Below, piece after piece: positions 30,135-33,100 of a DNA stretch of 64,000 nt. The position numbers are program-made. The DNA lies in NCBI RefSeq assembly GCF_056712565.1, contig NZ_CM160072.1. One strand, written 5' to 3'. Each line of letters opens with the position of its first letter. The stretch's first letter is position 1.

Positions 30135-33100
30135 ATTTGTGCTCTGATGCCTGATGCGACGCTGACGCGTCTTATCATGCCTACAATCTGCACCCGAACC
30201 GTAGGCCGAATAATGCGTTCACGCCACATCCGATCTGAAAATTCTTAAATCAATCTTCGCCGGGGGCCATGCGCTCCCGCTGTTGTGGAGGTTACCCATG
30301 TGCGAATTGCTCGGGATGAGCGCCAACGTCCCTACCGATATCTGCTTTAGTTTCACCGGACTTGTACAGCGTGGTGGTGGAACCGGGCCACATAAAGATG
30401 GCTGGGGCATTACCTTTTACGAAGGTAAAGGCTGTCGCACATTTAAAGATCCGCAACCCAGCTTTAATTCCCCCATCGCCAAACTTGTCCAGGACTACCC
30501 GATAAAATCCTGTTCGGTGTTGGCTCATATTCGCCAGGCTAATCGGGGCGAGGTGGCGCTGGAAAATACTCACCCGTTTACCCGCGAGTTATGGGGGCGT
30601 AACTGGACTTATGCCCATAATGGGCAACTGACGGGCTACAAATCACTGGAAACCGGCAACTTCCGCCCGGTCGGTGAAACCGATAGCGAAAAAGCCTTTT
30701 GCTGGCTCCTGCATAAATTAACGCAGCGTTACCCGCGCACACCGGGCAACATGGCGGCAGTGTTTAAATATATCGCCTCACTGGCGGATGAACTGCGGCA
30801 GAAGGGCGTTTTCAACATGCTACTTTCGGATGGGCGCTATGTAATGGCGTATTGCTCGACTAATTTACACTGGATCACCCGCCGCGCGCCGTTTGGCGTG
30901 GCAACGTTGCTGGATCAGGATGTGGAAATCGACTTCAGCTCGCAGACCACACCGAATGATGTGGTCACGGTGATTGCGACACAGCCGTTGACGGGCAATG
31001 AAACCTGGCAAAAGATTATGCCAGGTGAATGGCGCTTATTTTGCCTCGGGGAGTGTGTAGTTTGATGCCAGTTGTGGCTGCACAACTTCGTGGCTTAACG
31101 GCTTGCTGACCACGTAACGGCCATTGACCACAGAAACGGTCGGTGGCTTACGGGTTTGCTCAAAGTAGTCGTAGCCCGGCTTCAGTTGCTCCCAGAAGTC
31201 CTTAAAGTTGGAATATTTATGGCGCTTCATATTGGCGTCGGTCATGCGGAACGGATAAATACTCACTTGCACGCTCGGCTGACCAAACACCAGCGCACCA
31301 GTAACGAACTGGAAGATCTCATCAATACCCTGATTGGTCATCGCGTAGCAGCCGATGGAAACACAATCGCCGTGAATCATCAGGTATTTCCCTTCATAAC
31401 CATGCGCACGGTCATAGGCGTTTGGGAATCCAATATTAATCGCTTTGTAGTAACGGCTGTCTGGTTTTAACTGATTACGCTGGACGCTATAAAACCCTTC
31501 CGGGCTTTTGAAATCGCCCTGACGCTGTTTTGGCCCTAAGCCGCCGGAATATTTACAGATTTTATAGCTGTCGAGCAGTTGATATTGCTCGCCCATTTTG
31601 ACGTAGAGATCGAGCGTACGTTCTTCCTTGAAGATCTGGATGTAGACAGGGGATCCCATCAACTGCTGCTTATACTCTTTGCTCACTGGCGTGGTCGAGC
31701 TACTGCTGCCCAGCAAACCGGCAAACGAAACGCACGGGATCAACAACATCGCAAGAATTAATGCGATTTTACGCATACTGCTTATTCCTTGATAAAACGG
31801 TTACACACGCCAGGACGGCAAAATGAATCCCAAATCGGAATAGTCTGGATTTGGAAGGCTCACATTATCACCAAAAGAGTTTTACGCAAGCCTGTCGGCG
31901 CAGGGTTTACAAATTTAGCACAGGGGCAGTTTTCAAGAGTCCGAAAAGCGCATGGATTGTAGATTTATTTCTTATTTCCTAAGATTATGAAACCGCAATA
32001 GTAATATGCAAATAAGCAATTAATAATCCCGTTTACTCCTCCGGTCTTTTAAAATTCTCACCTTCATTCAGCTGGTTTATGTCCTTCATGTCTTCGTTCT
32101 TGCACGGCAGATTTCTGCATCCAGGCGTGTTTTCGTTATGCGTTTTGCTCCCTTTACTCGCCAGCGCCACCACATCACATATCTCTTTTAGCTACGCCGC
32201 CCGCCAGCGGATGCAAAACCGTGCGCGTTTATTAAAACAGTACCAAACCCATCTGAAAAAGCAGGCCAGCTATATTGTGGAAGGCAATGCCAAAAGCAGA
32301 AGGGCGCTGCGCCAGCATAATCGGGAGCAGATAAAACAGCATCCAGAATGGTTTCCTGCGCCGCTCAAGGCGAGTGACAGACGCTGGCAGGCGTTGGTGG
32401 AGAATAATCATTTCTTAAGCAGCGACCATCTACATAACATCACCGAAGTGGCGATTCACCGCCTGGAGCAGCAGCTAGGTAAGCCTTATATCTGGGGGGG
32501 CACGCGGCCTGATAAAGGCTTCGACTGTAGCGGGTTGGTTTTTTATGCCTACAACAAGATCCTTGAGGCTAAGCTCCCGCGCACGGCCAATGAGATGTAC
32601 CACTACCGTCGGGCAACGATTGTGGCGAATAACGACCTGCGCCGGGGAGATTTGCTGTTTTTCCATATCCACAGTCGTGAGATAGCCGACCATATGGGCG
32701 TATATCTTGGAGACGGTCAGTTTATCGAGTCACCGCGCACCGGGGAAACCATTCGGGTAAGTCGGTTAGCCGAACCTTTCTGGCAGGACCATTTTTTAGG
32801 CGCGCGACGGATTTTGACGGAAGAGACGATTTTGTAGGCCGGATAAGGCGTTCACGCCGCATCCGGCGGTTGTGCGCCGGTGTCTGATGCGACGCTACGC
32901 GTCTTATCATGCCTACAAATCTGTGCATTTTTTGCGAGCCGCTTTCCCGATTTAACACAACATCATTGCCGACTTTTCCTTTTCTTCTTACCGTTGAGAA
33001 AAAGGAGTCGTTATGTCTGAATATCGTCGTTATTACATCAAGGGGGGAACCTGGTTTTTCACGGTAAATTTACAGAATCGTCGAAACCAACTTTTGACCA

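What the first reader, a model, noticed from the sequence alone, without database searches (positions are those of the whole stretch)
31777..32078. dinJ-yafQ toxin-antitoxin pair appears absent between yafK and yafL
From memory, K-12 has yafQ-dinJ between yafK and yafL. Here the two genes are separated by only ~300 bp of non-coding sequence with no ORF of the right size or orientation. Presence or absence of TA modules is a known source of strain variation.
Basis: established knowledge. Interest (0 to 1): 0.3.

Follow-up and report, generated by a model that had tools for sequence, protein, structure and literature searches.

The report
Ancestral dinJ-yafQ-free yafK–yafL spacer
This E. coli strain (B2/ST95 type) really does lack the dinJ-yafQ toxin-antitoxin pair between yafK (dpaA) and yafL, but this is the original, never-occupied state of the site shared by about 38% of complete E. 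coli genomes and by related species, and it is already documented, so it is ordinary.

Summary
dpaA/yafK (31036-31776, -) and yafL (32088-32837, +; the ORF can also start at 32079) are separated by 302-311 bp with no dinJ/yafQ-like ORF.

No remnant is detectable by DNA or protein comparison. This is not a deletion scar. Homology to K-12 stops at 31916 and resumes at about 32161. In between, the window has about 244 bp and K-12 has about 839 unrelated bp: yafQ, dinJ, the LexA-box promoter, a different yafL upstream region and a different yafL signal-peptide coding end.

The window's whole spacer is collinear with E. albertii and two cryptic Escherichia clades. Citrobacter and Phytobacter also have dpaA next to yafL. 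The empty site is therefore ancestral and the K-12 state is the derived one, probably a foreign block replacement.

Among 5,426 complete E. coli genomes, 3,342 carry dinJ-yafQ DNA and 2,084 carry the window-type segment; the two counts add up to the total.

Absence from phylogroup B2 is already published (González-Alba 2019, PMC6896753). The verdict is a real, known and ordinary strain polymorphism. The only mildly new detail is the structure of the K-12 allele.

The parts
31036..31776 (-). dpaA (yafK/ldtF), YkuD-family peptidoglycan-Lpp amidase gene. It is the left flank of the site and is 98.1% identical to K-12.
   Evidence: ORF list; tblastn 100% aa identity to K-12 DpaA; RefSeq annotation of identical genomes; identity matrix.
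31777..31916 (-). dpaA upstream and leader region, shared by both alleles (99% to K-12). It is conserved as far as Citrobacter and Phytobacter. It contains a promoter-like TTGCGT-N16-TAATGT with an upstream TG and an invariant CCAAATC...GATTTGG hairpin. The dinJ-yafQ block in K-12 begins immediately beyond this region.
   Evidence: Pairwise alignment; multi-species alignments. The promoter reading is my inspection of the aligned sequence, not a tool call.
31916..31917 (.). Left breakpoint of the polymorphism (...GGGTTTACAAATTT | AGCACAGG...). In K-12 the sequence after AAATTT continues 15 bp downstream of the yafQ stop codon.
   Evidence: In 3,3xx genomes the 302-bp query matches only over positions 1-140.
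31917..32160 (+). Ancestral Escherichia-type segment of about 244 bp that K-12 lacks. It comprises the yafL upstream region plus the first 73 nt of yafL. It is replaced in K-12-type genomes by about 839 bp: yafQ, dinJ, the LexA-box promoter, a different yafL upstream region and a different yafL 5' end.
   Evidence: No similarity to K-12. Present in 2,084 of 5,426 genomes. Collinear at about 79-82% identity over the 205-bp yafL-proximal part with E. albertii and cryptic clades.
31988..32027 (+). AT-rich motif (TGAAA...TAATATGCAAATAAGCAATTAATAAT) ending about 62 bp upstream of the yafL ATG. It is the positional homologue of a TTAAT-N-TAATAAT-N-ATTAA motif found at the same distance from yafL in Citrobacter, Phytobacter, Kluyvera and in the K-12 allele. 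It is likely part of the yafL promoter or operator (inferred).
   Evidence: ATG-anchored alignment; local alignments.
32088..32837 (+). yafL, an NlpC/P60 (C40) peptidase gene forming the right flank. Its signal peptide MSSFLHGRFLHPGVFSLCVLLPLLA is of the Escherichia/Citrobacter type and differs from the K-12 MSLPSIPSFVLSGLLLICLPFSSFA. An in-frame ATG also exists at 32079.
32160..32161 (.). Right breakpoint. Clean homology with K-12 resumes at GCCAGCGCCACCACATCACAT, which is yafL codon 25 in both alleles.

Best explanation
The window carries the ancestral, never-occupied yafK(dpaA)-yafL intergenic region of the genus Escherichia. It holds two divergent promoter and leader regions: a deeply conserved one for dpaA (31777-31916) and the native one for yafL (about 31917-32087). 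It holds no toxin-antitoxin genes or fragments of them. The K-12-type arrangement is the derived state. In an ancestor of the A/B1/C/E-type lineages, about 244 bp of this spacer, including the yafL promoter and the first 24 codons of yafL, were replaced by an approximately 839-bp, low-GC block. That block carries yafQ, dinJ, their LexA-box promoter and a genus-level-divergent version of the yafL upstream region and signal-peptide coding end. It most likely arrived by horizontal transfer, with the right-hand crossover inside yafL. The same block, with the same junctions, later spread to phylogroup F and to one cryptic clade by recombination. Shown: absence, breakpoints, population frequencies, and collinearity with outgroups. 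Inferred: the direction of the event, the foreign origin of the K-12 block, and the promoter roles. The confidence of 0.9 applies to 'truly absent, ancestral empty site'; the foreign-block sub-claim is held at about 0.55-0.65.
For: (1) K-12 order and the replacement boundaries. (2) No remnant. (3) The alleles are complementary: dinJ-yafQ DNA is in 3,342 of 5,426 genomes at blastn sensitivity and the 830-bp K-12 block is in 3,340, while the window-type 235 bp is in 2,084; 3,342 + 2,084 = 5,426. (4) Outgroups: E. albertii (L010) and Escherichia sp. E1V33 (L009) have dpaA and yafL adjacent with a spacer alignable over its full length, as does 'E. coli' SCPM-O-B-8794 (L007), which is 94-95% identical in the flanking genes and therefore a cryptic clade; the dpaA-ATG-to-yafL-anchor distance, measured in L007 and L010 (no anchor motif was found in L009), is 410-411 bp against 410 here. 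Nine Citrobacter loci and Phytobacter also have dpaA-yafL adjacency without dinJ/yafQ. (5) The window YafL N-terminus resembles the Citrobacter one (FMSF..PR.LPGLLSLCV). (6) In the 205 bp around the yafL start, the K-12 type is only 40% identical to the window type, whereas the window is 79-82% identical to E. albertii and the cryptic clades. K-12 is 54% identical to C. amalonaticus, including a 46/56 match at the same distance from the ATG. (7) The K-12 block is 40% GC against 51% for the neighbourhood. (8) CE10 (phylogroup F) and cryptic-clade L008 have identical junctions and share most cassette SNPs. (9) The closest non-Escherichia YafQ homologues (77-82% identity) sit in unrelated contexts: a locus of small unannotated ORFs and an HTH gene in Salmonella, which may be mobile, and beside prlF-yhaV elsewhere. 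This points to a mobile cassette. [quoted passage not shown] YafQ is prevalent in A, B1 and F (PMC10790755). AIEC genomes are reported to have no yafQ/dinJ homologues (PMC11205521); that AIEC strains belong to B2 is my own knowledge, not from the passage.
Against: One cryptic Escherichia lineage (L008, MOD1-EC7003) does carry the K-12-type block, so the outgroup evidence is not unanimous. I explain this by lateral transfer because its cassette haplotype is nearly that of CE10, but the excess similarity is modest: 98.7% in the cassette against 96.3% in dpaA. No donor genome with dinJ-yafQ next to yafL, or with the K-12-type YafL signal peptide, was found outside Escherichia among the 120 listed best hits of the protein search or the 24 related loci. 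No target-site duplication, repeat or mobile-element signature marks the junctions, so the insertion mechanism is unknown. E. fergusonii and Salmonella did not appear among the yafL loci and could not be used as outgroups. Only 64 kb of this genome was available, so absence elsewhere in this particular genome rests on the population counts.
Confidence: 0.9

Rival explanations
1. Secondary loss: the common ancestor of E. coli had dinJ-yafQ here, and the B2 lineage deleted it, leaving the short spacer.
For: One cryptic Escherichia clade (L008) carries the module at the same site. TA modules are known to be lost as well as gained.
Against: A deletion cannot create the about 244 bp (31917-32160) that K-12 lacks. 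That segment is collinear at about 79-82% identity (over its 205-bp yafL-proximal part) with E. albertii and two other Escherichia clades, and its encoded signal peptide matches the Citrobacter type. No remnant or scar is present. The K-12 block is low-GC. Published reconstruction treats it as a gain.
Confidence: 0.04
2. The module is present but relocated or too diverged to recognise, so 'absence' applies only to this site.
For: Only 64 kb of the genome was available. YafQ-family toxins at 77-82% identity exist at other sites in other Enterobacterales.
Against: No DinJ or YafQ signal was found in the 64 kb, even at E <= 100. blastn sensitive to about 65-70% identity finds dinJ-yafQ DNA in 3,342 genomes, and the window-type spacer is in 2,084; these add up to exactly 5,426, so window-type genomes as a class have no second-site copy. 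AIEC genomes are reported without yafQ/dinJ homologues.
Confidence: 0.03
3. Assembly or sampling artefact: a collapsed or mis-joined region.
For: None.
Against: The 2.1-kb region is 100% identical in dozens of independently finished genomes, including S88, APEC O1, IHE3034 and PMV-1. The spacer is present in 2,082 complete genomes over at least 80% of its length.
Confidence: 0.005

Closest known systems
E. coli K-12 dinJ-yafQ locus (b0226-b0225), a type II TA of the RelB/DinJ antitoxin and YafQ (RelE-superfamily) ribosome-dependent mRNA interferase kind
   Same: Same chromosomal site, with the same flanking genes dpaA and yafL. The left 140 bp of the spacer is 99% identical.
   Different: The window has neither gene, nor the LexA-box promoter, nor any fragment. 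It also has a different yafL upstream region and a different YafL signal peptide.
TA-free dpaA-yafL spacer of E. albertii and cryptic Escherichia clades (loci L010, L009, L007)
   Same: Full-length collinearity. Where it was measured (L007 and L010) the spacer length is the same (410-411 bp from the dpaA ATG to the yafL anchor). The YafL N-terminus is of the same type, and identity is 79-82% in the yafL-proximal 205 bp.
   Different: Only ordinary species-level divergence.
Published phylogroup distribution of yafQ-dinJ (González-Alba et al. 2019, BMC Genomics, PMC6896753; Singh et al. 2023, mBio, PMC10790755)
   Same: These papers state that the module is in the E/B1/A lineage and in F, and not in B2, G or D. 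The window is a B2/ST95-type sequence lacking it.
   Different: They score gene presence or absence. In the passages I read, they do not describe the junctions, the replaced 244 bp or the yafL 5' swap.
Other TA modules in the same neighbourhood: yafNO downstream of dinB, and hicAB downstream of yafL in some strains
   Same: Small type II TA cassettes occupy intergenic positions around yafL and dinB in a strain-variable way.
   Different: yafNO is present in this window (37477-38171). hicAB is not present here; rayT occupies that position.

Membership tests
dinJ-yafQ type II toxin-antitoxin module | Antitoxin gene of the RelB/DinJ family (PF04221), about 86 aa | tested here: not met
   tblastn of K-12 DinJ gives no hit at E <= 1e-5 anywhere in the window and only noise in the spacer at E <= 100. 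Spacer ORFs have no Pfam match.
dinJ-yafQ type II toxin-antitoxin module | Toxin gene of the YafQ family (PF15738), about 92 aa, immediately downstream of the antitoxin | tested here: not met
   tblastn of K-12 YafQ gives a best hit in the spacer of E = 0.79 over 11 aa and a best hit in the window of E = 0.29. blastn with word size 7 finds nothing.
dinJ-yafQ type II toxin-antitoxin module | Autoregulated, LexA-box-bearing promoter upstream of dinJ | tested here: not met
   There is no CTG-N10-CAG in 31777-32087, whereas K-12 has CTGTATATTTATTCAG at L001 3520.
Ancestral (unoccupied) allele of an insertion polymorphism | The sequence across the site is collinear with outgroup species that lack the insert | tested here: met
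   The full-length spacer aligns with E. albertii and two cryptic Escherichia clades. dpaA-yafL adjacency without dinJ/yafQ holds in Citrobacter and Phytobacter.
Ancestral (unoccupied) allele of an insertion polymorphism | No scar or remnant of the insert, and no sequence explicable only by excision | tested here: met
Ancestral (unoccupied) allele of an insertion polymorphism | The occupied allele shows signs of foreign origin | tested here: met
   The K-12 block is 40% GC against 51% for the neighbourhood. Its yafL-proximal 205 bp is only 40% identical to the window type but 54% to C. amalonaticus. YafQ relatives sit in other genomic contexts. No donor was identified.
Simple insertion with target-site duplication (IS or transposon-like) | Direct repeats or terminal inverted repeats at the junctions of the occupied allele | tested here: not met
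   The repeat finder on the K-12 locus shows no junction-flanking repeats. The event replaced about 244 bp rather than adding cleanly.

The most novel reading that the evidence does not exclude
The presence/absence polymorphism is not a plain TA insertion. It is a xenologous block replacement: a foreign fragment carrying dinJ-yafQ together with another lineage's yafL promoter and signal-peptide coding end recombined into yafL. As a result, dinJ-yafQ-positive E. coli (K-12 included) express a YafL with a different export signal, under a different upstream region placed back-to-back with an SOS/DinJ-controlled promoter. The window preserves the native Escherichia regulation of yafL. A TA cassette would thus have hitch-hiked with, and rewired, a core cell-wall hydrolase gene.
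Probability: 0.55. Interest if true: 0.3.

Novelty: already known. Interest (0 to 1): 0.12.

Why it matters
It matters little. The result confirms that a B2/ST95-type ExPEC genome lacks one of the classic K-12 mRNA-interferase TA modules, a distribution already reported in phylogenomic surveys. Practically, it is a reminder that K-12 TA-deletion phenotypes (persistence, biofilm) cannot be transferred to about 38% of E. coli, which never had dinJ-yafQ. It also shows that the site is a clean biallelic marker separating the E/B1/A(+F) lineages from the B2/D/G-type lineages. The one point that could interest a specialist is that gaining the TA also replaced the promoter and signal peptide of the neighbouring peptidoglycan hydrolase gene yafL. 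'TA-plus' and 'TA-minus' strains may therefore also differ in YafL expression or export.

Tried and rejected
(1) I looked for a remnant of dinJ/yafQ using blastn with word size 7, tblastn at E <= 100, Pfam on the three spacer ORFs and a LexA-box regex. Nothing was found.

(2) I asked whether the spacer hosts a known RNA. Rfam at E <= 1 over 31500-32400 gave only a meaningless miRNA hit at E = 0.31.

(3) I tested whether the low identity of yafL to K-12 (92.9%, against 98.1% for dpaA) signals introgression linked to the TA. I rejected this: yafL and rayT are fast-evolving in every pairwise comparison, window and K-12 are still each other's closest relatives in the yafL body, and CE10 (TA-positive) is equally distant from both.

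(4) I looked for repeats or target-site duplications at the K-12 junctions and found none.

(5) I searched for a donor. YafQ homologues outside Escherichia are at most 82% identical and lie in unrelated contexts. No non-Escherichia YafL among the 120 listed best database hits has the K-12-type N-terminus. The donor remains unidentified.

(6) I tested for a conserved RNA structure in the dpaA leader. The sequence is almost invariant, with only 1 of 37 pairs showing a compensatory change, so structure can be neither supported nor excluded.

(7) The simple promoter scan found only two weak minus-strand candidates, no more than chance expectation.

(8) Matches on records labelled as plasmids (12-15 places) were not examined. 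I assume from general knowledge that they are F' factors or mislabelled replicons carrying this chromosomal region.
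Full report
**What is at the coordinates**

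The 64-kb window is an E. coli chromosome segment of the B2/ST95 type. The 2.1 kb around the finding is 100% identical to S88, APEC O1, IHE3034, PMV-1 and many other finished genomes.

The minus-strand ORF at 31036-31776 encodes DpaA (YafK/LdtF), 100% identical in protein to the K-12 version. The plus-strand ORF ending at 32837 is yafL, an NlpC/P60 (C40) peptidase gene. RefSeq annotates its start at 32088 in identical genomes, and an in-frame ATG also lies at 32079.

It holds only three small ORFs: 57 and 43 aa on the plus strand, and 46 aa on the minus strand overlapping the yafL start. None has a credible Pfam match.

The annotated MG1655 record has the following features, in locus L001 coordinates:

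- dpaA at 2066-2806 (-)
- yafQ at 2962-3240 (-)
- dinJ at 3243-3503 (-)
- yafL at 3713-4462 (+)

The recalled K-12 order is correct.

**Check for a remnant**

Sensitive blastn (word size 7, E <= 10) between the window and the K-12 locus gives two syntenic blocks:

- Window 30900-31916 matches K-12 L001 1930-2946 at 98.2% identity.
- Window 32152-33000 matches L001 3777-4625 at 91.6% identity.

Apart from short REP-type repeat matches downstream of yafL (window about 32831-32926), nothing else rises above chance 11-12-mers.

Reading the sequences, clean homology on the right resumes at GCCAGCGCCACCACATCACAT, which is window 32161 and L001 3786.

tblastn of DinJ and YafQ finds nothing in the window at E <= 1e-5. 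At E <= 100 it finds only noise: the best hit in the spacer is E = 0.79 over 11 residues.

The LexA box of the dinJ promoter (CTGTATATTTATTCAG, L001 3520) has no counterpart in the spacer. Rfam finds no RNA family there.

**The difference is a replacement, not a simple indel**

Between the two breakpoints the window has about 244 bp (31917-32160). K-12 has about 839 bp (L001 2947-3785) with no detectable similarity to it.

The K-12 block contains:

- 15 bp downstream of the yafQ stop codon
- yafQ and dinJ
- the 209-bp dinJ-yafL intergenic region
- the first 73 nt of yafL

Both alleles place the yafL ATG exactly 73 nt before the right breakpoint, and both give a 249-aa protein. The signal peptides differ completely: MSSFLHGRFLHPGVFSLCVLLPLLA here against MSLPSIPSFVLSGLLLICLPFSSFA in K-12.

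No direct or inverted repeats flank the K-12 block.

**Population frequency**

Searches against 5,426 complete E. coli genomes gave these counts:

| Query | Search | Genomes with a match |
|---|---|---|
| K-12 830-bp block | megablast | 3,340 |
| dinJ-yafQ coding DNA | blastn, sensitive to about 65-70% identity | 3,342 |
| Window-type 235-bp segment | blastn | 2,084 |

The last two numbers add up to exactly 5,426, so the site is essentially biallelic. Window-type genomes as a class have no dinJ-yafQ-like DNA elsewhere.

The short allele falls into three identity classes relative to the window: >=99% in 1,128 genomes, 90-95% in 823, and 80-90% in 132 (one further genome falls at 95-99%).

**Which state is ancestral**

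A scan of one genome per bacterial species for YafL relatives returned 24 loci. I screened these with tblastn for YafJ, DpaA, YafQ, DinJ, YafL and RayT.

- E. albertii (L010) and Escherichia sp. E1V33 (L009) have dpaA directly next to yafL. So does 'E. coli' SCPM-O-B-8794 (L007), which is 94-95% identical to E. coli in yafJ and dpaA and is therefore a cryptic clade. The distance from the dpaA ATG to a conserved yafL anchor is 410-411 bp in L007 and L010, against 410 in the window; the anchor motif was not found in L009.
- Their spacers align with the window's over the full length.
- Nine Citrobacter loci and Phytobacter also have dpaA-yafL adjacency without dinJ or yafQ.
- The first 140 bp next to dpaA is conserved even in Citrobacter and Phytobacter.
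- The window's YafL N-terminus is recognisably of the Citrobacter type (FMSF..PR.LPGLLSLCV).
- Only one non-coli Escherichia locus (L008, MOD1-EC7003) carries dinJ-yafQ.

The TA-free arrangement in the window is therefore the ancestral Escherichia state, and the K-12 arrangement is derived.

**Nature of the K-12 block**

I aligned 130 bp upstream to 75 bp downstream of the yafL ATG from 14 loci. All share an AT-rich motif, roughly TTAAT-N-TAATAAT-N-ATTAA, ending about 62 bp before the ATG. It lies at window 31988-32027.

Identities over this 205-bp stretch are:

| Comparison | Identity |
|---|---|
| K-12 type vs window type | 40% |
| Window vs E. albertii and cryptic clades | 79-82% |
| K-12 type vs C. 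amalonaticus | 54% |
| Between different genera | 46-53% |

The K-12 match to C. amalonaticus includes a 46/56 stretch at the same distance from the ATG.

The K-12 signal peptide scores 40-51 (BLOSUM62) against Citrobacter and Kluyvera YafL N-termini, but only 20-22 against the window's. The block is 40% GC against 51% for the surrounding 23 kb.

My inference is that the K-12 block is a xenologous fragment. It carries dinJ-yafQ together with another lineage's yafL promoter and 5' end, and it recombined in with its right crossover inside yafL. I hold this with moderate confidence.

No donor was found:

- YafQ homologues outside Escherichia are at most 82% identical. They lie in unrelated contexts: among small unannotated ORFs and an HTH gene in Salmonella, and beside prlF-yhaV in another contig.
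- No non-Escherichia YafL among the 120 listed best database hits has the K-12-type N-terminus.

**Single origin and spread**

CE10 (phylogroup F) and the cryptic-clade locus L008 have the same junctions as K-12. They share most of the cassette SNPs that distinguish them from K-12.

In L008 the cassette is 98.7% identical to K-12, while dpaA is 96.3% and the yafL body about 90%. This fits one insertion event followed by recombinational spread, rather than independent insertions at the same nucleotide. The excess similarity is modest, however, and I treat this as an inference.

**A hypothesis considered and dropped**

yafL, rayT and the lfhA pseudogene (about 32.2-35.4 kb) are only 81-97% identical to K-12 (per 200-bp window), against about 98% to the left of the site. 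This looked like a linked introgression.

I rejected that reading. The same genes are fast-evolving in every pairwise comparison, the window and K-12 remain each other's nearest relatives in the yafL body (92.9%), and TA-positive CE10 is equidistant from both. It is a high-diversity region, not a tract tied to the TA.

**How the region most likely works here**

The spacer is a divergent promoter region.

The dpaA-proximal 140 bp (31777-31916) is almost invariant from E. coli to Phytobacter. It contains a promoter-like TTGCGT-N16-TAATGT with an upstream TG, followed by a leader of about 90 nt with an invariant 7-bp hairpin, CCAAATC...GATTTGG (the promoter reading is my inspection). The K-12 block begins just beyond this element, so dpaA control is probably the same in both alleles.

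The remaining about 170 bp, with the AT-rich motif, is the native yafL upstream region. In K-12 it is replaced and placed back-to-back with the SOS- and DinJ-regulated dinJ promoter. Whether this changes yafL expression is untested.

**Comparison with what is known, and novelty**

The distribution is already published:

- González-Alba et al. [quoted passage not shown]
- Singh et al. 2023 (PMC10790755) find YafQ prevalent in A, B1 and F.
- A 2024 review reports no yafQ/dinJ homologues in AIEC genomes (PMC11205521). That AIEC strains are B2 is my own knowledge.
- Strain-to-strain TA variation in E. coli has been textbook material since at least 2009 (PMC2654758).

The finding is therefore real but already known and ordinary. 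The only detail I did not see described in the passages I read is the structure of the K-12 allele: the replacement of 244 bp, including the yafL promoter and signal peptide. That detail concerns K-12-type genomes rather than this window.

**Verdict**

The refinement is that the site was never occupied, rather than having lost the module. Interest is low (0.12).

Noticed in passing
window 32200-35400: yafL, rayT and the lfhA (Flag-2) pseudogene are only 81-97% identical to K-12 (per 200-bp window), against about 98% immediately to the left of the site. yafL and rayT are fast-evolving in all Escherichia comparisons: window vs K-12 is 92.9% in yafL against 98.1% in dpaA. TA-positive CE10 is equally distant from both, so this is a local diversity hotspot not linked to dinJ-yafQ.
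   Followed up: yes
L035 2619-3246 (E. coli O145 RM12367-C1) and L037 2467-2820 (strain E118), the position corresponding to window about 32900-33600: In some dinJ-yafQ-less strains the slot downstream of yafL, occupied by rayT here and in K-12, holds a hicA-hicB type II TA pair instead; in E118 it holds hicB alone. The yafL neighbourhood is thus a recurrent landing place for small TA cassettes.
   Followed up: partly
window 37477-38633: The other TA of this neighbourhood, yafN-yafO (with yafP) downstream of dinB, is retained in the window. The strain lacks dinJ-yafQ but keeps yafNO.
   Followed up: partly
window 31777-31916 (minus strand): The dpaA upstream and leader region is more conserved across genera (E. 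coli to Phytobacter, nearly invariant) than the dpaA coding sequence (about 83%). It includes an invariant 7-bp hairpin CCAAATC...GATTTGG. There is no covariation to test a structure and no Rfam match, so it may be an undescribed regulatory leader.
   Followed up: partly
window 1-25340: A complete type VI secretion cluster (tssM...tssB, hcp, vgrG, and the cpe1/cpi1 effector-immunity pair) followed by ISAs1 remnants lies in the window sequence upstream of yafV, most of which has no counterpart in the 40 kb of K-12 compared. From my own knowledge, this is probably the aspV-associated island typical of ExPEC.
   Followed up: no
window 48615-61339: A 12.7-kb element inserted next to tRNA-Thr (thrW) is absent from S88. 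It is annotated in matching genomes with a tyrosine integrase, major capsid protein, baseplate protein and about 10 hypothetical proteins. At least 80% of the queried interval (element plus about 0.3 kb of flanks) is held by only 180 of 5,426 genomes. It looks like a small phage or phage satellite.
   Followed up: partly
window 38823-40573 and 44200-44601: rtcB-family RNA ligase and prfH are intact here, whereas K-12 has only the ykfJ/prfH pseudogene remnants. crl is intact here, whereas K-12 MG1655 has an IS1 insertion in it.
   Followed up: no
window 33512-33829: Two overlapping 220-bp stretches downstream of rayT are 92.7% identical to each other at a 100-bp offset. They look like a tandem REP/BIME-type array next to the REP-associated transposase gene, and generate several spurious small ORFs.
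   Followed up: no
hit H60, NZ_CM172034.1 3708536-3708642 (strain CUVET25-1155): In one genome only the right third of the spacer (query 196-302) matches, and the match is annotated as lying under speE. This suggests a large deletion or rearrangement joining the speE and yafL regions in that strain.
   Followed up: no
L033 3001-3330 (GCA_015356555.1) and protein P0008: A YafQ variant of 109 aa (90% identical, longer than the 92-aa K-12 protein) sits at the normal dpaA-yafQ-dinJ-yafL site in a genome whose neighbouring FHIPEP (lfhA) gene appears full-length (697 aa). This could be a strain with an intact Flag-2 end.
   Followed up: no
L004-L006 (Pseudocitrobacter spp.): Pseudocitrobacter YafL is 88-92% identical to the E. 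coli protein, closer than Citrobacter's 77-80%. In one locus it is followed by a RayT 93% identical to the K-12 protein, yet yafJ and dpaA are not nearby. This suggests lateral movement of a yafL-rayT unit between genera.
   Followed up: no
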